Origin: Pseudomonadota bacterium
GTDB lineage: Bacteria > Pseudomonadota > Gammaproteobacteria > JAADHS01
Reading direction: 5' to 3'
DNA: 64,000 bases
NCBI GenBank assembly: GCA_021821045.1
Contig: JAKACW010000009.1
Coordinates: forward strand, 1,109-65,108
In this document: positions 1,423 to 53,282 of the stretch, in pieces
Layout: each line of letters starts with the position of its first letter
Position numbering within the stretch: the first letter of the stretch is position 1
Position numbers and translations under genes: made by a program
The notes under the pieces: model-generated
The model's database searches: none
Seen by the model: only the letters and a program-made list of their open reading frames with translations
What the model was told of the DNA's origin: nothing

Positions 1423-2409
1423 TCAAGCAGCGCGATCTAACTCTTCAATCAATCCGTCGAAAAACTGTTTGGTCGCCGCGAGCTGCTGAGAAACCGTTTC
1501 GACCTGGTTGATATGTTGGCGAAATGCTGCTCCGTGCGGCTGCCCCTTGCTGTACCACGAGATATGTTTTCTCGCCACGCGTACACCTGTGAAGTCGCCG
1601 TAGAACGCATACAAGTTTTCCAAATGACCAAGCAGAATATCGCGAATCTCGGCTAACGCAGGTGGGGGCAGATGTTGACCTGTTTTTAAGAAATGGTCAA
1701 CCTCACGAAAAATCCACGGACGCCCCTGCGCTGCGCGGCCAATCATGATCCCATCAACGTTTGTGTAATCCAATACGTACTTTGCCTTCTCCGGCGTTGT
1801 GATATCGCCATTGGCGATGATTGGAATTGAGACAGCGTTTTTTATTTCAGCGATCGTGTCGTATTCCGCATCGCCCAGGTATGCGCAGGCGCGCGTGCGG
1901 CCGTGCACCGCGAGTGCTTGTACGCCCGATTCTTGTGCAATGCGCGCAATGGTGACGCCGTTGCGGTTCGCTTTGTCCCAGCCTGTGCGAATTTTTAGTG
2001 TCACGGGAATGTCGACTGCGTTAACAACCGCTTCCAAAATCCGTGCCACAAGTTGTTCGTGTTTGAGCAACGCCGAGCCCGCCATGACGTTGCAAACTTT
2101 TTTTGCCGGACAGCCCATGTTGATGTCGATGATGTCGGCGCCGCTATCGGCGTTGACGCGCGCCGCTTCGGCCATCATCGCCGGATCGGCGCCCGCGATT
2201 TGCACCGAACGCGGCGTCGTCTCGCCGTCGTGATTGGCCCGACGTTGGGTCTTGGCGCTGCCCCACAACAGTGAATTGGAGGAGACCATCTCCGAGACCG
2301 CCATGCCGGCGCCCAGGTTCTTGCACAGTTGCCGGAACGGCCGATCGGTGACGCCCGCCATCGGCGCGAGAATCAAGGGGTTAGAAAGTTCGTAGGGTCC
2401 GATCTTCAT
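1423..2409 (-). CDS. dusB: tRNA-dihydrouridine synthase B (DusB). Start most likely the internal Met at 2409; the ORF track extends to 2460.
   Basis: MKIGPYELSNPLILAPMAGVTDRPFR matches the DusB N-terminus MRIGQY...APMAGITDRPFR. TIM-barrel FMN motifs are present, and it is co-directional with and immediately upstream of fis. Confidence 0.9.
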   Translation of the reverse strand: MKIGPYELSNPLILAPMAGVTDRPFRQLCKNLGAGMAVSEMVSSNSLLWGSAKTQRRANHDGETTPRSVQIAGADPAMMAEAARVNADSGADIIDINMGCPAKKVCNVMAGSALLKHEQLVARILEAVVNAVDIPVTLKIRTGWDKANRNGVTIARIAQESGVQALAVHGRTRACAYLGDAEYDTIAEIKNAVSIPIIANGDITTPEKAKYVLDYTNVDGIMIGRAAQGRPWIFREVDHFLKTGQHLPPPALAEIRDILLGHLENLYAFYGDFTGVRVARKHISWYSKGQPHGAAFRQHINQVETVSQQLAATKQFFDGLIEELDRAA

Positions 2410-2463
2410 GAGCAAAAACGTGTGTTCGGTGCGCGAAAAAGAGCGCCAATCATACCGCAACCC

Positions 2464-3702
2464 CTAGAGAAACGAAAACTCAAAACCATGGGCCTTCTGT
2501 TCCGCGTCCATGATCTCGAGCTTGACATCCACTTGCTGTTGCGGCGCGATGCCGACGTCCACATCGTCAGGGTTGGTCAAGTATTCGCTGGGTTCGAACT
2601 GGCGCGTCGCGACACGGTTGCCCCCCGCGTCCATCAGGTCGAGTCGCAGCACCGGGTAAGGTTGGCTGAACGGCGCGTCGTTGACGAAGGTTGCGCGCAC
2701 TTCGAGTGCATCGCGAATCTTTGGATGGACGCGAATGTCCCGGCTGACCAGTTTGATCAACGTAACGTTGCGCATGAGGGCGAGTTTGCAGCCGGCGAGT
2801 TCGCACATGCGTTCGAGCCAGGGGCGCAGAGGGGCATGGCGCGCCAGTTCATCGCGGGCGAAGTAGGCGATCTGGAACAAGATCGCGCTCACCAACACCA
2901 GTGTGGCGATGCCCCAGCCTAGCGTGGCCAGTGTATCGCCGCCGTCGTAACCGCCGCGCCGGCGATCGAGTTCGAAACGCGTGACCTGCTGCAGTTCGCG
3001 CCCAGCCAAATCAATGGAATCGAACAGATTGGGCAACTGCCCGCCGGGCTCTTCTTTCGGCATGGCCGGAATGGCATTGTCGAATCGCGGCATTGCCGGA
3101 GCGGCGGATCGAGACACGGGCGGCGGCTGCGGACTTGGCGCCGGTGCAGGGAGCGGGTTCGCCGGTTCAAAAATCGGCGGGCGTCGCGCCGGTTCGGGCG
3201 GCGGTGGAGTCGGTTGCTGCACCGGTCGTGCGCGCGGCTTGGGCGGCGGCGGTTCGTAGGCCGGCGGTGGCGGCGCGGCGGGCGGCGGCGTGCGCAATCC
3301 CGGCGTGTTGACGCGATTGACCGGCGGCAACGGTCGCGGCGGCGGCGGCGGTGTCGCGGTGGGAATGATGATGTGGCGCGCATTTACGCGAACGCCTTCG
3401 GCTGCGTATTCCTGCGCCAAGTCTTGCGGCAGTGACGGCGTGTCGAACGTCTCGGGAACAACCTGCGTTTCTACCGCCGGTTCGACTTCGTCTAGTGCGA
3501 CCGGCTCCCCGTCGACTTCCCACTCTTCGAATTCTTCTTCGTTTTCTTCATCGACCGTTTCGCTCGGCAGATCTTCGTACAACGCTTCGTAGGCATTGAA
3601 GGTGTTGTAGCAAAACCCGCAACGCACCTTGCCACCGACGAGTTCAAGTTGCTCCTCAGTGATGCGAAATAGAGTCTTACAATTACTGCATTGGGTGTAC
3701 AT
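2464..3702 (-). CDS. Zinc-ribbon (MJ0042-type CxxC...CxxC) / DUF3426-family protein with a long Pro-rich low-complexity linker
   Basis: N-terminus MYTQCSNCKTLFRITEEQLELVGGKVRCGFCYNTFNAY is a zinc ribbon. The middle ~110 aa is P/A-rich (TPPPPPRPLPP...PPPEPARRPP). The C-terminus has one TM plus a DUF3426-like domain. It sits between prmA and dusB, as does the equivalent hypothetical gene in Pseudomonas. Confidence 0.7.
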   Translation of the reverse strand: MYTQCSNCKTLFRITEEQLELVGGKVRCGFCYNTFNAYEALYEDLPSETVDEENEEEFEEWEVDGEPVALDEVEPAVETQVVPETFDTPSLPQDLAQEYAAEGVRVNARHIIIPTATPPPPPRPLPPVNRVNTPGLRTPPPAAPPPPAYEPPPPKPRARPVQQPTPPPPEPARRPPIFEPANPLPAPAPSPQPPPVSRSAAPAMPRFDNAIPAMPKEEPGGQLPNLFDSIDLAGRELQQVTRFELDRRRGGYDGGDTLATLGWGIATLVLVSAILFQIAYFARDELARHAPLRPWLERMCELAGCKLALMRNVTLIKLVSRDIRVHPKIRDALEVRATFVNDAPFSQPYPVLRLDLMDAGGNRVATRQFEPSEYLTNPDDVDVGIAPQQQVDVKLEIMDAEQKAHGFEFSFL

Positions 3703-3837
3703 CTAAACAGCCAAATGAATTCCGTCTTGGAATCAATATGTTAACGTCCGCGGGGCAAATTGGGCAGTCAGTGTAGACCTAATCTTAGAAAAAGCTCCAT
3801 CGCGACAGTTCCTATCGCGTATGGGGCGAAGGCGAAT

Positions 3838-4713
3838 CTAATGCGCCTGCACGCAGATCAGATGCCATTCGCCTTCGGTCGCTTCCTCTACCAATTGGGT
3901 CAATGGTTCGTAGGCGCCCAGTACGCGCTGACTTTGACTGGTAAGCAAGCCTGCCAGAACAATTTTCCCCCCCGGCTTCACCAATGTAGCGAACCGAGGT
4001 GCCAATTCAATTAGCGGCTCCGCCAGAATGTTGGCCAATATGAGATCCGCTGTTTTTTCAGGGAGTTGGGTGGGGGCGACGCACTTGATCTGGGCGCCGA
4101 CGCCGTTCTTGTTGGCGTTGTCGGTGGTGGCGAGGATGGCTTGGTGGTCGTGGTCGACAGCGTAGACGATTTTGGCCCCCAGCTTCGCGGCCGCGATGGC
4201 AAGAATCCCGGAACCGCAGCCGTAGTCGATAACTGTTTGATTGGAAAGGTCTTGTGTGGCAAGCCAGCGCAACATCAGCGCCGTTGACGCGTGGGTGCCC
4301 GTGCCGAAAGCCAGGCCCGGGTCGAGCAGGATATTCAAGCCGTTCGGATCGGGCGGAGGCAGCCACGACGGGCAGACCCACAGCCGGCCGCCGAAATGCA
4401 GCGGTTTGAAATCGTCCATCCACTTGCGGACCCAGTCCTGCTCGGGCAATTCCGTGATCTCGTAGCTGAACCCCCCGGGGAAGCTGGCCTGCATTGCGGC
4501 GGTGACCGCGGCGAGATCCACATCGGGTTCGAACAAGCCCACGACGCGGGTATGGGACCACAGCGGCGTGGTGCCGGGGGGAGGCTCGAGAATAGGATTG
4601 TCAGCGGCGTCCTCGAAGGTGACCGACAGCGCGCCGACGCGGGTGAGCGCCTCGGCCAGGGCGTCGGCGTCGGCGCTGGACGCGGAAAGTTTGAGTTGCT
4701 GCCAGTGACTCAC
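3838..4713 (-). CDS. prmA: Ribosomal protein L11 methyltransferase PrmA
   Basis: Full-length alignment to E. coli PrmA in pattern (WxQLKL N-terminus; FxxxRLWVCPSW; LDPGLAFGTGTHASTALMLRWL; IDYGCGSGILAIAAAKLGA). It follows accBC as in enterics and Pseudomonas. Confidence 0.92.
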   Translation of the reverse strand: MSHWQQLKLSASSADADALAEALTRVGALSVTFEDAADNPILEPPPGTTPLWSHTRVVGLFEPDVDLAAVTAAMQASFPGGFSYEITELPEQDWVRKWMDDFKPLHFGGRLWVCPSWLPPPDPNGLNILLDPGLAFGTGTHASTALMLRWLATQDLSNQTVIDYGCGSGILAIAAAKLGAKIVYAVDHDHQAILATTDNANKNGVGAQIKCVAPTQLPEKTADLILANILAEPLIELAPRFATLVKPGGKIVLAGLLTSQSQRVLGAYEPLTQLVEEATEGEWHLICVQAH

Positions 4714-7351: not shown

Positions 7352-7966
7352 TTAGAGCAGTTTTAGCAGGGCATTTTCGGCGACGGTTTCGCTCAAGCCA
7401 CCGGCGGCGATGGAGGCGATTCCCCCATCGCGATTGACGAATACCGTGTACGGCAGCACGCCGTCCACGTTGCCGTATTGCTTGGCCAGCGGAATCCCGT
7501 CGTCATCGCCGATCAGCACCGGATAGTCGATGGGGATAATCTTCATGAAGCGTTCCACGGCTTTGGCATCGTCGAGGGCGATACCGATGAACTGCACGCC
7601 CTGATCGCCATACTTTTTTTGCAGCTCATTGAAGGCCGGAATTTCCTTGCGGCACGGGGCACACCAGGTGGCCCAAAAATTAACGACTACCACCTTGCCG
7701 TCCCATTCGCCCGCGGTGCGGGTGTTGCCTTCCAGGTCCGGCAGGCTGAAGTCGGGGCGCAGTCGTTTGAGGAAGCTACTGCTGCCCGAAGCGGTCGATG
7801 CCACCTTGACTATCCCATTGCCACCGGTTGCGGCCTCGCTTGTTGGGGCATCGGCGAAGATCGGTTCGACTGACGTCGCTTGAAACTGTTTGCTCAACAG
7901 GTTGCCGCCGACCATGCCGACGATGAACAGGATGACAGCGATGATGAGAACCCGTTGTTGCGACAT
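7352..7966 (-). CDS. Membrane-anchored TlpA/ResA-like thiol:disulfide oxidoreductase (thioredoxin fold)
   Basis: An N-terminal TM helix is followed by a thioredoxin domain with FWATWCAPCRKEIP (WCxxC active site). It lies immediately downstream of dsbD. Confidence 0.85.
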   Translation of the reverse strand: MSQQRVLIIAVILFIVGMVGGNLLSKQFQATSVEPIFADAPTSEAATGGNGIVKVASTASGSSSFLKRLRPDFSLPDLEGNTRTAGEWDGKVVVVNFWATWCAPCRKEIPAFNELQKKYGDQGVQFIGIALDDAKAVERFMKIIPIDYPVLIGDDDGIPLAKQYGNVDGVLPYTVFVNRDGGIASIAAGGLSETVAENALLKLL

Positions 7967-7984: not shown

Positions 7985-10288
7985 CTAGAGTGCGACAGAC
8001 GGGTGCAGCGCGCCGTCGATCACCTGTTTGAACTGCTCCGGTTTCATGAATCCGACCACGCGGTATTCTTTCCTTTCCGCGCCTTGTCCGTCAAAAAATA
8101 GTATGGCCGGCGGACCGAAGATACCGAACTGTTTCAGCAGCGCCTGATCGTCATCGTCGTTGAGCGTGACATCCGCCTGCAATAGGATCGCGTCGCCCAA
8201 TGCCGCCTGCACGGAGGCATCGCTGAAGGTGTATTTTTCCATCTCTTTGCAGGAGACGCACCAATCCGCATAGAAATCCAACATCACAGACCGGTTTTGC
8301 GCCGCCGCCGCCGCGAGTTCGGCTTTGACGCCGGACCAGCCTTTAACCTTGCGGAATTCGAGTTCGTGGGTGGCGCTGACGCCGGTTGGGCCGACACTGG
8401 CGAATACGCCGCGCAACGGTTGCAGCGCGTCCTTGCCGCCGCCGGAGGCGCCGACGATCAACAGCACGCCATACAGGAGCGACACCACGCCCATGCCTTG
8501 CCAAAACTGCCGCCAGCCGGTGGCATCGACATCGAGGCGGCGCAGCGCGCCCAGGTAGACGCCGCTGACGATAGCTAGCACACCCCACAACAGCAGTGTG
8601 ATCGACGCCGGCAGAATCCGCTCCAGCATCCAAATCGCCAACCCGAGCAGCATGACGCCGAACACGGCTTTCACGGTGTTCATCCAGCCGCCAACCCGCG
8701 GCAGCAATTTGCCCGCCGACGTGCCGATCAGCAGCAGCGGGGTGCCCATGCCCAGGCTCAGCGCGAACAGCGCCATGCCGCCGAACACGGCGTCGCCGCT
8801 TTGACTGATGTAAATGAGCGCGCCGGCCAAGGGTGCGGCGACACAGGGGCCGACGATGAGCGCCGATAGCAGACCCATAATGGCGACGCCGATATACGTT
8901 CCGCCTTGCTGTTTGTTGCTGATTTCCGAAAGTTTGCTTTGCAGCGCGGCGGGCAACTGTAAGTTGTAGAAGCCGAACATCGACATGGCCAGGGCGACGA
9001 AAATCGCGGCGAAGCTCGCAACCAGCCACGGCTCCTGAAACAGCGCTTGGAGATTTTGGCCGGTCATCCCCGCGATGACCCCGGCAATGGTGTATGTCAA
9101 CGCCATTGGCAGAACGTAAATGAGCGATAAAGTGAACGCTTTGCGGGTGGACAGCCCCGCGCCCTGGCCGACGATGATGCTGGACAGGATCGGCACCATG
9201 GGGAAGATGCAGGGCGTAAATGCCAAGAGCAGTCCTAGTCCGAAAAATGCCGCCAGCGTGCCAAAGCTCGCGCCGCCGGCCAGCGTGGCGGCGTAGCGGT
9301 CTTGCTCGCTGACGTAGTCGCCCGGAGCTTCCGTCGGCGGTTGTGAGGTCGGCGGCGTGCTTGCCATGGCCAAGCGCAGCGGTACGTCGGTTTTGGTTGG
9401 GGGATAACAGAAACCGGCTTCGGCGCAGCCCTGATAACGGGCTTCGAGAATGATCTCCTGGGCCGCGGTATTGGCGCGCTGCATGGGCAAGCGAATCTCG
9501 ACCCGGTTGTGGTAGACCTCCATGCGCCCAAAGGACTCATCTTCCTTGAATTCGCCGGCCGGGCTCTGGTGCGGCAGCAGCGTGACGCCGTCGCCGCTTT
9601 TCAACGCGAAGCCGAATTTCTCGCGGTAGAGGTAATAGCCATCGGCGATGTCCCAGCGCAGTACGGCGGTGTACGGGTCGACGGCGTCGGCTGATAGAAC
9701 GAACGCGCGCTCGACGGGCAGAAACTCGCCTTGGGTGCCGCCGCCGAACTTATTGCGCAGGCTGCTGCCCAGGCGCGAGAACAAGCCCGGTTCTGCGCTT
9801 GGCGCAGGCTCCGACATGGCGACCGGCAGCGCGACGCTTACGGTTTGTTTGTGCGGCGGATAGCACACGCCCACATCGGCGCAGCCTTGGGATCCGGCGA
9901 TGATCTCGACCTCGTCGGGCAGTGCGCCGGCGACCGATTTGACCGGCACCGTGACGGATACGGCTTGACGATAGGTCTCGACGTCGCCGAAAAACTCGTC
10001 CACCTTGGGTTTGCCGGGCGGGATATCCGCAGTGCCCAGTTCGACGTTGGGCGTGGACGTGGAGAAATTGAAGCGGTGCTTATAGAGAAAATAACCTTCG
10101 GCAACAGTCCACGTGATGCGAATCGCGTCGGGGCCGGCGGCTTCGGCGGAGATCTTGAAGGCGTCGTCGACGCGCAGCAATTCATCTGGATCGACCGCGA
10201 AGGCGCGGGGAATGCCGAGCGTACCCAGCAATGCCAGAGCAAGTGCGATCCGTGCCGTATGATTTTTGACGCGTGGTTTTAAATGCAT
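7985..10288 (-). CDS. dsbD: Thiol:disulfide interchange protein DsbD (DipZ) with a tandemly duplicated N-terminal alpha domain
   Basis: 767 aa. It has a signal peptide, then two copies of the nDsbD catalytic motif (SQGCADVGVCYPPHKQTV and YQGCAEAGFCYPPTKTDVPL). Next is the polytopic beta domain (FTPCIFPMVPIL ... GPCVAAPLAG), then a C-terminal thioredoxin gamma domain (YADWCVSCKEME). A standard DsbD is ~590 aa with one alpha domain. Confidence 0.9.
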   Translation of the reverse strand: MHLKPRVKNHTARIALALALLGTLGIPRAFAVDPDELLRVDDAFKISAEAAGPDAIRITWTVAEGYFLYKHRFNFSTSTPNVELGTADIPPGKPKVDEFFGDVETYRQAVSVTVPVKSVAGALPDEVEIIAGSQGCADVGVCYPPHKQTVSVALPVAMSEPAPSAEPGLFSRLGSSLRNKFGGGTQGEFLPVERAFVLSADAVDPYTAVLRWDIADGYYLYREKFGFALKSGDGVTLLPHQSPAGEFKEDESFGRMEVYHNRVEIRLPMQRANTAAQEIILEARYQGCAEAGFCYPPTKTDVPLRLAMASTPPTSQPPTEAPGDYVSEQDRYAATLAGGASFGTLAAFFGLGLLLAFTPCIFPMVPILSSIIVGQGAGLSTRKAFTLSLIYVLPMALTYTIAGVIAGMTGQNLQALFQEPWLVASFAAIFVALAMSMFGFYNLQLPAALQSKLSEISNKQQGGTYIGVAIMGLLSALIVGPCVAAPLAGALIYISQSGDAVFGGMALFALSLGMGTPLLLIGTSAGKLLPRVGGWMNTVKAVFGVMLLGLAIWMLERILPASITLLLWGVLAIVSGVYLGALRRLDVDATGWRQFWQGMGVVSLLYGVLLIVGASGGGKDALQPLRGVFASVGPTGVSATHELEFRKVKGWSGVKAELAAAAAQNRSVMLDFYADWCVSCKEMEKYTFSDASVQAALGDAILLQADVTLNDDDDQALLKQFGIFGPPAILFFDGQGAERKEYRVVGFMKPEQFKQVIDGALHPSVAL

Positions 10289-10291
10289 GAT

Positions 10292-10624
10292 TTATTCTTT
10301 ATTTTTCAGAGACGTTTGCTCGCTGATCCAACCTAGGTAATCACTTGATCCGGCTTCAATTGGGACCATGATGATTTCCGGTAGTTCATAGGGGTGTAGG
10401 GCGCGAAGCGTGGTCTCCAGCTTGGGATACAGGTCGCGCCGTGTTTTAATGACCAGCAGGATTTCGTCGCTGGTTTCGATATTTCCTTGCCACTCATAGA
10501 CTGAGCGAACGCCGCGCACCTGATTGACACAGGCTGCCAGACGGCTTTCGACCAAGTGCCGGGCAAGCGAATCGGCCGCGCCGGAGTCGGGACAAGTGCA
10601 AAGAACTATTCCGTACGTGCTCAT
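10292..10624 (-). CDS. cutA: Divalent-cation tolerance protein CutA
   Basis: 110 aa, CutA1 fold pattern (YGIVLCTCPD...LAACVNQV...VYEWQGNIETSDEILLVIKT). It is adjacent to dsbD, the classical cutA1-cutA2 arrangement. Confidence 0.9.
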   Translation of the reverse strand: MSTYGIVLCTCPDSGAADSLARHLVESRLAACVNQVRGVRSVYEWQGNIETSDEILLVIKTRRDLYPKLETTLRALHPYELPEIIMVPIEAGSSDYLGWISEQTSLKNKE

Positions 10625-13464: not shown

Positions 13465-14712
13465 ATGGGGCGCAGGATTTTGCCGACGCTGAAAAAAACC
13501 ATTTTTTCGATTCTGACCCTGCTGGCGCTGGCGCTGGCGCTGGCGCTGGCGCTGGCGCTGGCCGCGGCTCAGGCCAATACGGCGCCTGGCGACAGCGAAG
13601 CCCGGCTCAAGGCGCTGTTGGACGGCGCGGCGGATGCAAGAAGCGCGGCGCTGCAGTACAGCGATTTTGTGCGCGCGTTCCGCGCCCGTCACCAGAATAA
13701 CGTCTCCACTTATACGATCTACAATCAGTATCTGGACGCCGTCGGCGTTCGCCGCATCAGCAACTACCTCGAAACCGAGGACGCGGCCTGCCACGGCGTG
13801 GCGCACGGCTTGGGCCGAGCGATCGGCGAACGGGTGCCCGATTTGCGGGAGGCGATGTCCGTCTGTGGCAGTACCTGCACCTACGGTTGTGTCCACGGCG
13901 TGTTCAAGCGCTACTTTGTCGACAAGGCGGCTGACGAGCCGGACCACAGTCATCACCAGCACAACGCCGCAAATGCCGATAAGCCCGACCAATTCGCGTA
14001 TGATCGTTTCGCCGCGGAGGCCCTTGCCGCCTGTCGTGAAGATTCGCGCACGGTGGACGGCTTCTACCGCGGCAATTGCGCTCACGCCGTCGGTCACGCG
14101 TTTGGTTCGCTGGAGGCCGACATCGACAATGCACAGCGCGCCTGCGACATGTTCGACGGCGAGGAAATGCGCTACTACTGCGCGACCGGTGTCTTCATGG
14201 AGCGCGGTGGCGAGATTCGCCGGGGGTTGTTCGACAAGGGCGTGACTCGATCGGACAAACAACGTCTCGCGGTCGAATACTGCGGCCGATTCGAGCAGCA
14301 TGCCGGCGCGTGTTTGCGCTTTGTCGCGCACGCCATCTCGACGCGGGAGGAGGCCGATGGGTTTCGGGCGCTTTGCAGGGATCTCGCAGGCGCCGCTCGC
14401 GGCGGGTGTTTCAACGCTCTTGGCTTTTTGACTCGAACGTTCACGGCTAAAAACCTGGATGTGTTCACACAGGTCTGTTCCGGCGCGACACAGCATGACC
14501 GATCAGCGTGCGTCATTGGACTGTTGTTAACGAAACCTAATCAGCGTCACCGGAAAAGTCTTGAACAGGCGTGTGAAAACGTTGGCGACGAGCCGCTGAC
14601 CTCTCTGTGTAAGGATCAGCTTCAGCGCAATTACTACCAAGTCGGCAATCCCGCCATGCAGCAGTTGCTTCGGGTGGCGCAGGAGGACGACCATGCGCAG
14701 GTCGTCGATTGA
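13465..14712 (+). CDS. Secreted cysteine-rich repeat protein of unknown function. Its signal-peptide h-region is encoded by a (GCTGGC)7 microsatellite.
   Basis: A GGGAGGG Shine-Dalgarno sits 8 nt before the ATG. The N-terminus MGRRILPTLKKTIFSILTLLALALALALALALAAAQA is a Sec signal peptide. The mature part holds about seven ~45-aa repeats, each with two Cys and a C-[HA]-[GA]-V-x-H-[GA] core (CHGVAHGLG, CVHGVF, CAHAVGHAFG, CATGVF, CLRFVAHAI, CFNALGF, CVIGLL). The overlapping minus ORF 13318..14496 translates the microsatellite as RQRQRQ and is a shadow. Confidence 0.7.
   Translation: MGRRILPTLKKTIFSILTLLALALALALALALAAAQANTAPGDSEARLKALLDGAADARSAALQYSDFVRAFRARHQNNVSTYTIYNQYLDAVGVRRISNYLETEDAACHGVAHGLGRAIGERVPDLREAMSVCGSTCTYGCVHGVFKRYFVDKAADEPDHSHHQHNAANADKPDQFAYDRFAAEALAACREDSRTVDGFYRGNCAHAVGHAFGSLEADIDNAQRACDMFDGEEMRYYCATGVFMERGGEIRRGLFDKGVTRSDKQRLAVEYCGRFEQHAGACLRFVAHAISTREEADGFRALCRDLAGAARGGCFNALGFLTRTFTAKNLDVFTQVCSGATQHDRSACVIGLLLTKPNQRHRKSLEQACENVGDEPLTSLCKDQLQRNYYQVGNPAMQQLLRVAQEDDHAQVVD
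13521..13562 (+). repeat. Perfect hexanucleotide microsatellite (GCTGGC)x7 inside the signal peptide of the 13465..14712 CDS
   Basis: Direct read: gctggc repeated seven times, 13521-13562, encoding (LA)n. Confidence 0.95.
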
Positions 14713-19556: not shown

Positions 19557-19928
19557 TCAGAACCGATTGAACCGGCGGAAGCGGTTGAAGCCGCGGACGA
19601 CAGTTGTCGCATTGCCGTTGTTTACCGCGGTGACCCGGCGGAAATCATCGCCGTCGCCGCTGGAGATGCCCGTTCCCGTGGCGCCGTTGATAACGACGCG
19701 GCGATCATCGGCACCGAAGCGAGTGAAGCGGTCGTCGCCGGAGACAACGATGGCGGTGTTGACCGGAGCGGCTATGGTGGTGAAGCCCGAGCTGAAGCCC
19801 ATTCCGCCCATACCACCCATGCCACCCATTCCCATTCCGCCCATACCACCCATGCCGCCAGCGAAGGCCATGGGCGCTGCTCCGAGTGCGACAGCCAATG
19901 CGCCGATCTTTACGGTTTTGCTCAACAT
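19557..19928 (-). CDS. Small secreted Gly/Met-repeat protein (unknown function)
   Basis: A GGAGGG Shine-Dalgarno sits 7 nt before the ATG at 19928. The signal peptide is MLSKTVKIGALAVALGAAPMAFA|GG. It is followed by GGMGGMGGMGMGGMGGMGGMG, encoded by an imperfect 9-nt DNA repeat at 19799-19862. Then comes a G/D/T/N-rich region, and the protein ends FNRFRRFNRF. It is co-directional with and 106 nt downstream of the methyltransferase gene. Confidence 0.65.
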   Translation of the reverse strand: MLSKTVKIGALAVALGAAPMAFAGGMGGMGGMGMGGMGGMGGMGFSSGFTTIAAPVNTAIVVSGDDRFTRFGADDRRVVINGATGTGISSGDGDDFRRVTAVNNGNATTVVRGFNRFRRFNRF

Positions 19929-20049
19929 AGTCCTGCCCTCCAAGTGTGATGTGCCAGTGTGTGTTTGCTTTGTTGAGGCGCATCTTGGCAGGGCAAGATT
20001 AGGCGAAGCTTAGTGGAGTCTTAGTCTGAGCTTAAGGGTGAGTAATCCG

Positions 20050-51179: not shown

Positions 51180-51290
51180 GGCGGCTCAGCGGCTGGGGGT
51201 GCTCGGCGGTGTTTTTCCGACCGAGCTGAGATTAAACCCTTTGAACCTGAACCGGTCAGTACCGGCGGAGGAAAGCGGCGCAGTAAACGA
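51180..51290 (+). promoter_or_regulatory. TPP (THI-box) riboswitch in the thiC leader
   Basis: GGGGTGCTCGG ... CCGAGCTGAGATTAAACCCTTTGAACCTGAACCGGTCAGTACCGGCGGAGGAA contains the conserved CUGAGA and ACCCUUUGAACCUGA cores, 110-220 nt upstream of thiC. Confidence 0.85.

Positions 51291-51383: not shown

Positions 51384-53282
<1,899 letters not shown>

What the first reader, a model, noticed from the sequence alone, without database searches (positions are those of the whole stretch)
9390..10185. DsbD carries two tandem catalytic N-terminal (alpha) domains
Canonical DsbD has one periplasmic Ig-like alpha domain with the Cys103/Cys109 pair in a YQGCADxGFCYPP motif. Here that motif occurs twice, about 150 residues apart (SQGCADVGVCYPPHKQTVSV and YQGCAEAGFCYPPTKTDVPL). 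Each sits at the end of its own Ig-like segment (…ITWTVAEGYFLYKHRF… and …LRWDIADGYYLYREKF…), and the protein is about 175 aa longer than E. coli DsbD. A duplicated electron-accepting domain could widen substrate range. For example, it could serve both DsbC/DsbG and CcmG/TlpA-type partners, and a TlpA-like gene is the very next ORF. Or one copy could be a decoy or regulatory copy. Either way it is an uncommon architecture worth documenting.
Basis: seen in the sequence. Interest (0 to 1): 0.55.

Follow-up and report, generated by a model that had tools for sequence, protein, structure and literature searches.

The report
DsbD with two catalytic alpha domains
This gene encodes a genuine periplasmic disulfide reductase (DsbD) that carries two complete copies of its electron-output domain; the layout is real and apparently undescribed in the papers searched, but it is widespread in environmental and xanthomonad-type bacteria rather than a rarity.

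Summary
The ORF at 7985-10288 (-) encodes a 767-aa DsbD with a signal peptide, two DsbD_N (alpha) domains, the 8-TM DsbD_TM domain and a thioredoxin-like gamma domain. The alpha domains are 37% identical in protein and about 50% in DNA. The same protein occurs on three contigs, so it is not an artefact.

It is not a rarity. All 120 closest database homologues have at least two alpha domains, and five have three. So do 28 of the 80 best species-representative loci and 120 of 120 Luteimonas/Lysobacter-type DsbDs. About 6-10% of alpha-bearing 50%-identity cluster representatives match at the level that separated tandem from single here.

Across 330 tandem proteins both domains keep C103, C109, D68, G72, Q101, G102 and Y42 in essentially all sequences. 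The two positions are distinct paralogue types. They differ at position 70 of the cap loop (F in alpha1, variable in alpha2) and at position 78.

AlphaFold gives two confident beta-sandwiches joined by a low-confidence linker, unlike the ScsB tandem unit.

The TlpA-like neighbour is equally common beside single-alpha dsbD genes, so it is unrelated to the duplication.

Most likely both domains are active outputs reduced in parallel by gamma. Six literature searches found no description.

The parts
7985..10288 (-). dsbD ORF, 767 aa: signal peptide, alpha1, linker, alpha2, beta (TM) and gamma
   Evidence: ORF list. Pfam DsbD_N x2, DsbD_TM and Thioredoxin_7. NCBIfam DsbD 746 bits against a cutoff of 330. 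Colinear with E. coli DsbD over aa 181-754 at 39% identity.
10196..10288 (-). Predicted signal peptide, aa 1-31 (MHLKPRVKNHTARIALALALLGTLGIPRAFA | VDPDE)
   Evidence: Read from the sequence. No signal-peptide predictor was run. Homologues cover 94-99% of the query, including this end.
9809..10195 (-). Alpha1, aa 32-160: the extra, membrane-distal DsbD_N domain
   Evidence: Own HMM envelope 31-160. phmmer against E. coli nDsbD E 1.6e-14. AF2 pLDDT above 90. Absent from the main colinear BLASTP alignment with E. coli DsbD.
9986..10000 (-). Alpha1 cap loop D97-E98-F99-F100-G101, equivalent to E. coli D68-G72; the capping Phe70 is kept
   Evidence: Alignment to E. coli nDsbD. Position 70 is F in 89% of 330 alpha1 domains.
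9854..9892 (-). Alpha1 active-site motif SQGCADVGVCYPP (C136, C142)
   Evidence: Both Cys are present in essentially all 330 alpha1 domains.
9740..9808 (-). Inter-alpha linker, aa 161-183, rich in Ala/Pro/Ser/Gly, containing GLFSRLGSSLRNKFGGG
   Evidence: AF2 pLDDT is 46-75 over protein aa ~153-192 (model blocks 131-170), with pTM 0.49. G182 is invariant in 76 sequences. An LxxLGxxLG-like motif is present in many homologues.
9353..9739 (-). Alpha2, aa 184-312: the membrane-proximal DsbD_N domain, positionally equivalent to the single alpha of E. coli
   Evidence: Best Pfam stretch 187-302. phmmer against E. coli nDsbD E 2.2e-20. Colinear BLASTP alignment. AF2 pLDDT above 90.
9527..9541 (-). 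Alpha2 cap loop D250-E251-S252-F253-G254, with Ser at the Phe70 position
   Evidence: Alignment to E. coli nDsbD. Position 70 in 330 alpha2 domains: H 39%, F 17%, S 11%, Y 11%.
9398..9436 (-). Alpha2 active-site motif YQGCAEAGFCYPP (C288, C294)
   Evidence: Both Cys are present in essentially all 330 alpha2 domains.
8612..9259 (-). Beta (transmembrane) domain, aa 344-559, with C360 and C482
   Evidence: PF02683 E 2e-101. C360 and C482 align to E. coli precursor C182 and C304 and are invariant in 20 homologues.
8015..8368 (-). Gamma (thioredoxin-like) domain, aa 641-758, active site C677-V-S-C680
   Evidence: PDB cDsbD matches over aa 641-754, E ~4e-33. Pfam Thioredoxin_7. Aligns to E. coli C480/C483.
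10292..10624 (-). cutA, immediately upstream in the same orientation (conserved synteny, also in E. coli)
   Evidence: PF03091 E 6e-38. cutA lies upstream in 19 of 28 tandem and 27 single-alpha loci. E. coli has cutA-dsbD.
7352..7966 (-). Membrane-anchored TlpA/ResA-like thioredoxin (WCAPC), immediately downstream; a likely DsbD client but not specific to the tandem form
   Evidence: Pfam AhpC-TSA and Redoxin. NCBIfam ResA, TlpA and DsbE matches are all below cutoff. Neighbour frequency is equal beside tandem and single-alpha dsbD.

Best explanation
This is a true protein-disulfide reductase DsbD of a widespread subfamily. Two independently folded, catalytically complete alpha (nDsbD) domains sit in tandem on a flexible tether ahead of the membrane domain.

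Proposed electron path: cytoplasmic thioredoxin, then the membrane Cys pair (C360/C482), then the gamma CxxC (C677/C680). Gamma then reduces alpha2 (C288/C294) and alpha1 (C136/C142) directly and in parallel. Each alpha hands electrons to thioredoxin-fold periplasmic clients such as DsbC/DsbG-type isomerases and CcmG/TlpA-type reductases, including the downstream neighbour.

The two positions are old paralogue types with different residues around the active site. They probably have overlapping but not identical partner preferences or cap-loop kinetics.

Shown here: the architecture, the conservation of every catalytic residue in both copies, the separate conservation of the two types, and the low-confidence linker.

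Inferred: both copies are redox-active, gamma reduces each directly, and their partners differ.
For: Domain calls and family score.

Both copies are equally conserved among 115 close homologues, with mean top-residue frequency 0.605 against 0.603. In 330 tandem proteins C103, C109, D68, G72, Q101, G102 and Y42 are present in essentially all copies of both alpha1 and alpha2.

The two positions are separately conserved types. 27 of 28 first domains score higher on the alpha1 HMM and 25 of 28 second domains on the alpha2 HMM. 31 of 33 alpha1 domains form one NJ clade.

Type-specific differences lie next to the active site. Position 70 is F in 89% of alpha1 but H/F/S/Y in alpha2. Position 78 is R in 91% of alpha1 but F/H/Y in alpha2. 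Positions 104-105 are AD in 92% of alpha1. F70 is the residue that caps the Cys pair in E. coli (PMC7347389).

The linker is modelled with pLDDT 46-75 and the model has pTM 0.49, so it is probably flexible and could let alpha1 reach gamma.

Closely related DsbDs keep only an alpha1-type or only an alpha2-type domain, and these are interleaved with tandem forms on the beta+gamma tree. This suggests either domain alone can sustain DsbD function.

By established knowledge, nDsbD is only known to exchange with thioredoxin-fold partners: cDsbD, DsbC, DsbG and CcmG (structures 1VRS, 1JZD and 1Z5Y, listed).
Against: There is no biochemical or genetic data for any tandem DsbD. I found no partner gene whose presence tracks the second alpha domain, and the TlpA-like neighbour does not. 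Position 70 is variable across ordinary nDsbD domains too: F/Y in only 53% of genera (PMC7347389). The alpha1/alpha2 difference there therefore need not mean different partners. The tools returned no inter-domain contacts or PAE, so direct docking of gamma on alpha1 is not shown. The trees are NJ without support values.
Confidence: 0.55

Rival explanations
1. The outputs are parallel but redundant. Both alpha domains are active and reduced by gamma, but they serve the same clients. The second copy only raises local output capacity or extends reach across the periplasm.
For: All catalytic residues are identical in both copies. Lineages that lost either copy persist. Triple-alpha forms exist in which domains 2 and 3 are near-duplicates of the alpha2 type, which looks like dosage.
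Against: The alpha1 and alpha2 types stay distinct across distant lineages, with type-specific residues next to the active site. Pure redundancy would not be expected to maintain two types for so long.
Confidence: 0.2
2. The domains form a serial relay. Gamma reduces alpha2, alpha2 reduces alpha1, and only the distal alpha1 (or mainly alpha1) meets clients.
For: Alpha2 occupies the position of the single alpha of E. coli, next to the membrane domain. Alpha1 keeps the E. coli-like F70, R78 and A104-D105 client-facing features. Alpha1 is the outermost domain on the tether.
Against: nDsbD is only known to exchange with thioredoxin-fold partners, and Ig-to-Ig exchange between two capped active sites has no precedent (established knowledge; PMC7347389). 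Related DsbDs with an alpha1-type domain only exist, so alpha1-type domains can evidently be reduced without an alpha2. The ~25-30 unstructured linker residues should let alpha1 reach gamma.
Confidence: 0.1
3. One copy is a non-catalytic adaptor, decoy or regulatory module, analogous to the cysteine-less alpha-B subdomain of ScsB.
For: ScsB shows that a second Ig domain can serve as a non-redox specificity module (PMC10907172). Alpha2 of this window has Ser instead of the capping Phe70.
Against: Both Cys pairs and the cap-loop D68/G72 are present in essentially all 330 tandem proteins. Conservation is equal in both copies. The three apparent Cys-less alpha1 domains turned out to carry a CX7C pair.
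Confidence: 0.07
4. It is an assembly artefact, or a mis-called fusion of a stand-alone alpha-domain gene with dsbD.
For: None beyond the general possibility of collapsed or expanded repeats in metagenome assemblies.
Against: The DNA of the two copies is only about 50% identical, with no long repeat. The identical protein is on record on 3 contigs. The ORF is continuous, with no internal signal peptide. The same architecture occurs in several hundred homologues, including isolate genomes of Luteimonas, Lysobacter and Marinicella.
Confidence: 0.01

Closest known systems
Canonical DsbD (E. coli DsbD/DipZ, NCBIfam NF001419; alpha-beta-gamma, 565 aa)
   Same: The beta and gamma domains match, all six canonical Cys are present, and cutA lies upstream. 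The window protein is colinear with E. coli DsbD at 39% identity over aa 181-754. Each alpha domain has the nDsbD fold, the cap loop and the CX5C pair.
   Different: There is an additional complete alpha domain plus a ~25-30-residue tether between the signal peptide and the canonical alpha, adding 202 aa. That gives eight redox Cys instead of six. The membrane-proximal copy has lost the capping Phe70 (Ser here; variable in the subfamily), while the extra distal copy keeps it.
ScsB (third class of the DsbD superfamily), whose alpha region is a tandem immunoglobulin fold (P. mirabilis ScsB-alpha, PDB 6C29)
   Different: In ScsB only subdomain alpha-A carries a redox motif (CX3C) (PMC10907172), and ScsB-alpha cannot be aligned by sequence with DsbD-alpha (PMC3322552). 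Here both domains are DsbD_N with CX5C. They are joined by a low-confidence, probably flexible linker. Only one domain (112 of 247 residues, 14% identity) superposes on 6C29.
Xanthomonas campestris pv. campestris DsbD (XC_0531), genetically characterised
   Same: The synteny is cutA-dsbD-aroQ-accB. The gamma CxxC is reported at residues 683-686, against 677-680 here and 480-483 in E. coli. This implies the same ~200-aa N-terminal extension (PMC5488342). Its relatives Luteimonas and Lysobacter all carry two alpha domains.
   Different: I could not retrieve the sequence of XC_0531, so its tandem alpha is inferred. No TlpA-like gene is listed between dsbD and aroQ there. The paper's text never uses the words 'domain' or 'N-terminal', so it does not discuss the N-terminal architecture.

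Membership tests
DsbD (protein-disulfide reductase, alpha-beta-gamma) | Whole-protein match to the curated DsbD model above its cutoff | tested here: met
   NF001419 scores 746.2 bits against a cutoff of 330.
DsbD (protein-disulfide reductase, alpha-beta-gamma) | Periplasmic Ig-like alpha domain with the Cys103/Cys109 pair (QGCxxxxxCYPP) and the D68-G72 cap loop | tested here: met
   Met twice. PF11412 matches in 2 stretches. C136/C142 come with DEFFG and C288/C294 with DESFG. Fold match to 1JPE, 3PFU and 1L6P.
DsbD (protein-disulfide reductase, alpha-beta-gamma) | DsbD_TM membrane domain with the two membrane-embedded Cys (E. coli C163/C285, mature numbering) | tested here: met
   PF02683 E 2e-101 over aa 344-559. 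C360 and C482 align to E. coli precursor C182 and C304 and are invariant in homologues.
DsbD (protein-disulfide reductase, alpha-beta-gamma) | C-terminal thioredoxin-like gamma domain with CxxC | tested here: met
   WCVSC at 676-680. PDB cDsbD matches E ~4e-33. Aligned to E. coli C480/C483.
DsbD (protein-disulfide reductase, alpha-beta-gamma) | Thioredoxin-dependent reduction of periplasmic clients (activity) | not testable with these tools
   This needs genetics or biochemistry.
ScsB | COG4233-type alpha region not alignable with DsbD-alpha, with a single CX3C in subdomain alpha-A and a cysteine-less alpha-B | tested here: not met
   Both domains are PF11412 with CX5C. Only one domain superposes on 6C29, at 14% identity. 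The definition is taken from PMC3322552 and PMC10907172.
CcdA | Membrane domain only, with no fused alpha or gamma domains | tested here: not met
   Alpha (x2) and gamma domains are present in one ORF.
Tandem-alpha DsbD subfamily (defined here) | Two DsbD_N domains in the order alpha1-type then alpha2-type, each with a Cys pair, before DsbD_TM | tested here: met
   The window protein clusters with the alpha1 and alpha2 types. The layout is shared by 115 of the 120 nearest homologues (the other five have three alpha domains), 28 of 80 genome loci and 120 of 120 Luteimonas-type hits.

The most novel reading that the evidence does not exclude
Tandem-alpha (and triple-alpha) DsbDs form an old, unrecognised subfamily in which one membrane electron transporter feeds two non-equivalent output ports. 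Alpha1 (F70/R78, E. coli-like active-site surround) and alpha2 (variable cap loop) would have partitioned the periplasmic client set, for example isomerases against cytochrome-c/TlpA-type reductases. Many present-day 'canonical' single-alpha DsbDs of Gamma- and Betaproteobacteria would then be secondary reductions that kept one port or the other.
Probability: 0.3. Interest if true: 0.6.

Novelty: new variant of a known kind. Interest (0 to 1): 0.4.

Why it matters
DsbD is the textbook hub that carries reducing power across the inner membrane, and its mechanism has been worked out entirely on single-alpha proteins. A common natural form with two or three complete output domains raises three questions:
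- how one gamma domain services several acceptors;
- whether the cap-loop differences set partner choice or kinetics;
- whether the single-alpha forms are derived from tandem ones.

The architecture appears to be present in tractable organisms: Xanthomonas (XC_0531, which already has a knockout phenotype), Lysobacter and Luteimonas. The Cys-to-Ser experiments are therefore straightforward. In practice, annotation pipelines label all of these simply 'DsbD', which hides the difference.

Tried and rejected
- **Artefact or duplication collapse:** rejected.
- **Link between the TlpA-like neighbour and the second alpha:** tested on 80 loci and rejected. The neighbour is present in 14 of 28 tandem loci and 29 of 52-55 single-alpha loci.
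- **Alpha1 without cysteines in Rudaea and L004:** my CX5C regex missed them. Alignment shows a CX7C pair, so these are not degenerate copies.
- **afdb50 fold search to find named UniProt tandem proteins:** the library was unavailable.
- **Literature:** six searches for any description of tandem or duplicated DsbD alpha domains found nothing relevant. A seventh search, for Katzen et al. 2002 (EMBO J), showed that paper is not in the library. Subscription papers are not covered.
- **Other periplasmic redox partners in the window:** I scanned 25 of the larger ORFs against Pfam. Apart from the TlpA-like neighbour, none was a periplasmic redox protein.
- **Not attempted:**
  - A second AF2 run on the full-length protein, because no contacts or PAE are returned.
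  - A mirror-tree co-evolution test of alpha1 or alpha2 against gamma, because the signal would be dominated by phylogeny.
Full report
**What is there.** The finding lies inside one ORF, window 7985..10288 on the minus strand, 767 aa.
- Pfam finds DsbD_N (PF11412) in two stretches (whole-protein E 8.8e-64), DsbD_TM at aa 344-559 (E 2e-101) and a thioredoxin-like C-terminal domain.
- The curated NCBIfam DsbD model scores 746 bits against a cutoff of 330.
- The N-terminus reads as a signal peptide (…GIPRAFA|VDPDE).
- Alpha1 spans about aa 32-160, with cap loop DEFFG and SQGC136ADVGVC142YPP.
- Alpha2 spans about aa 184-312, with cap loop DESFG and YQGC288AEAGFC294YPP.
- The membrane Cys are C360 and C482, and the gamma motif is C677-V-S-C680.
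- BLASTP against E. coli K-12 DsbD (565 aa) is colinear from window aa 181 to 754 at 39% identity. A second, weaker hit aligns alpha1 (aa 35-167) to the same E. coli alpha domain at 30%.

Alpha1 plus its tether is therefore an N-terminal addition of about 200 aa. Only the '175 aa longer' figure is off; the true difference is 202 aa.

**Not chance, not artefact.** The two domains are 37% identical (E 3e-27). Each matches solved E. coli and Neisseria nDsbD structures on its own: alpha1 E 1.6e-14 and alpha2 E 2.2e-20. At DNA level they are about 50% identical, and the longest shared repeat is 14 nt. The identical 767-aa protein is on record on three contigs. The one shown is a 98-kb ENA metagenome contig with the same gene order.

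**How common it is.**
- *Nearest homologues.* A search of 5.8 billion proteins returned 120 best hits, all 726-922 aa and covering 94-100% of the query. With an HMM built from the two window domains, 115 have two alpha domains and 5 have three (P0008, P0016, P0021, P0048, P0081).
- *Species-representative genomes.* A scan returned 80 loci. 28 carry two alpha domains and 52 carry one. The tandem carriers include isolates (Luteimonas cucumeris, Marinicella pacifica). They also include MAGs of Rudaea, Woeseia, Wenzhouxiangella, Steroidobacteraceae, Methylococcales, Thiothrix, Competibacteraceae, Thiobacillus and a betaproteobacterium.
- *Luteimonas-type proteins.* A second protein search seeded with the Luteimonas protein gave 120 of 120 hits of 771-863 aa. 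All have two alpha domains and two Cys pairs. Many are RefSeq/UniRef entries of Luteimonas and Lysobacter species named simply 'protein-disulfide reductase DsbD'.
- *Cluster representatives.* An exhaustive HMMER search of 1.84 billion 50%-identity representatives with aa 23-330 gave 4505 hits at E ≤ 1e-3, 2601 at ≤ 1e-10 and 267 at ≤ 1e-30. In a local calibration with the same database size, E ≤ 1e-30 captured 28 of 28 tandem and 0 of 50 single-alpha proteins. About 6-10% of alpha-bearing representatives therefore match at the tandem level. This is probably a lower bound for distant lineages.
- *Xanthomonas.* The X. campestris DsbD studied genetically (XC_0531) has its CxxC at residues 683-686 and cutA/aroQ/accB neighbours. 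This implies the same long form. The words 'domain' and 'N-terminal' do not occur in the paper's text (PMC5488342).

'Uncommon' is therefore too strong. The tandem form is a minority among DsbDs but a widespread one.

**Are both copies functional?**
- Among 115 close homologues the two domains are equally conserved (mean top-residue frequency 0.605 against 0.603).
- In 330 tandem proteins aligned to E. coli numbering, C103, C109, D68, G72, Q101, G102 and Y42 are present in essentially all copies of both alpha1 and alpha2 (the table rounds each to 1.00). Y40, F71, G107, Y110 and P111 are at 95% or more in both, and P112 is at 94% or more.
- Three alpha1 domains seemed to lack the pair. They in fact carry CX7C (QGCHQVDPKICFPP).
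- AlphaFold2 (76-sequence alignment) gives two beta-sandwiches with pLDDT above 90. These are joined by a segment with pLDDT 46-75 (protein aa ~153-192), and the model has pTM 0.49.

**Two distinct types.**
- 27 of 28 first domains score higher on an alpha1 HMM, and 25 of 28 second domains on an alpha2 HMM.
- In an NJ tree, 31 of 33 alpha1 domains fall in one clade. That clade also holds 15 single-alpha DsbDs (Ectothiorhodospira, Thauera/Rhodocyclaceae, Herbaspirillum). Alpha2 domains mix with the remaining single-alpha proteins, including E. coli.
- Type-specific positions sit next to the active site:

| Position (E. coli numbering) | alpha1 | alpha2 |
|---|---|---|
| 70 (cap loop) | F 89% | H 39%, F 17%, S 11%, Y 11% (Ser in this window) |
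| 78 | R 91% | F/H/Y |
| 104-105 | AD 92% | A/Q, D/E/T |

- F70 is the residue that packs on the Cys pair and whose frustration drives cap opening in E. coli. Across genera only 53% of nDsbD domains have F or Y there (PMC7347389). The difference is suggestive, not diagnostic.
- On a tree of the beta+gamma part, tandem, alpha1-only and alpha2-only proteins are interleaved, with at least 16 state changes among 84 tips. Alpha1 domains from distant lineages also cluster together. Taken together, this fits an old tandem form with repeated loss of one or the other copy better than many independent duplications. These are NJ trees without support values, so the point is tentative.

**Context.** The gene order is fxsA / cutA-dsbD-tlpA-like-aroQ-accB-accC. 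The downstream 204-aa protein is a membrane-anchored thioredoxin with WCAPC. Its best matches are ResA, TlpA and DsbE models, all below cutoff. It is a plausible DsbD client. However, it follows dsbD in 14 of 28 tandem loci and in 29 of 52-55 single-alpha loci, with a few of each lacking downstream sequence. It says nothing about the duplication.

**Mechanism.** *Best model, 0.55.* Thioredoxin reduces the beta domain, beta reduces gamma, and gamma directly reduces both alpha domains. Both alphas serve thioredoxin-fold clients, with partly different preferences or kinetics. The reasons are:
- the complete catalytic set in both copies;
- long-term maintenance of two types;
- a probably flexible tether of about 25-30 residues;
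- the existence of alpha1-only and alpha2-only relatives;
- the known restriction of nDsbD exchange to thioredoxin folds.

*Rivals.*

| Rival model | Weight |
|---|---|
| Parallel but fully redundant, for dosage or reach | 0.2 |
| Serial relay gamma to alpha2 to alpha1 | 0.1 |
| One copy is a non-redox adaptor or decoy, as in ScsB alpha-B | 0.07 |
| Artefact | 0.01 |

**Comparison with known systems.** By every sequence-testable criterion this is a DsbD. It is not ScsB. ScsB-alpha is a tandem Ig unit with a single CX3C in subdomain A and is not alignable with DsbD-alpha (PMC10907172; PMC3322552). Here both domains are DsbD_N with CX5C, and only one superposes on 6C29 (112 of 247 residues, 14% identity).

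**Novelty and verdict.** Six full-text searches found no description of tandem or duplicated DsbD alpha domains. The library lacks most subscription papers, and a seventh search showed that Katzen et al. 2002 is not held. Domain databases implicitly contain the architecture. I rate it a new variant of a known kind. It is a real, conserved and experimentally tractable variation on a textbook enzyme.

Noticed in passing
Relatives P0008, P0016, P0021, P0048, P0081 (872-922 aa) and P0123 (991 aa): These DsbD homologues have three tandem alpha domains, each with a Cys pair. Domains 2 and 3 are near-duplicates in the CX5C motif (YQGCAEAGLCYPP-like). The first domain is a divergent alpha1 type, for example QGCLSIENCYP.
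   Followed up: partly
window 9740-9790 (-), aa ~167-183 of DsbD: The alpha1-alpha2 linker contains a conserved motif of the form [FL]xxLxxLGxxLG[LF]G (here GLFSRLGSSLRNKFGGG; G182 is invariant in 76 sequences). AF2 gives it pLDDT below 50. The following 'EFLPVERAF' aligns with 'SQFVPADQAF' near the start of E. coli nDsbD. Its function is unknown.
   Followed up: partly
L003 (Competibacteraceae MAG) 1598-3919: Both alpha domains of this tandem DsbD score as alpha1 type, and its second domain sits inside the alpha1 clade. This suggests an independent duplication or a conversion event.
   Followed up: no
L004, L015, L034 (the last two Rudaea), first alpha domain: The alpha1 active site has CX7C spacing (QGCH[EQ]VDPKIC[YF]PP) instead of CX5C, while alpha2 keeps CX5C.
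   Followed up: no
window 13465-14712 (+), repeat at 13521-13562: A 415-aa Cys-rich ORF has no Pfam match. Its N-terminal hydrophobic stretch is encoded by a perfect GCTGGC x7 repeat, giving (LA)7, which could be prone to slippage.
   Followed up: no
window 19557-19943 (-), repeat at 19797-19859: A small (128 aa) ORF with a predicted signal peptide followed by a (GGM)n tract (AGGMGGMGGMGMGGMGGMGGMG), encoded by a 9/18-nt tandem repeat. No function was assigned.
   Followed up: no
window 51185-51290 (+): A TPP riboswitch (RF00059, 64.8 bits) lies directly upstream of thiC at 51402-53282. This is ordinary.
   Followed up: yes
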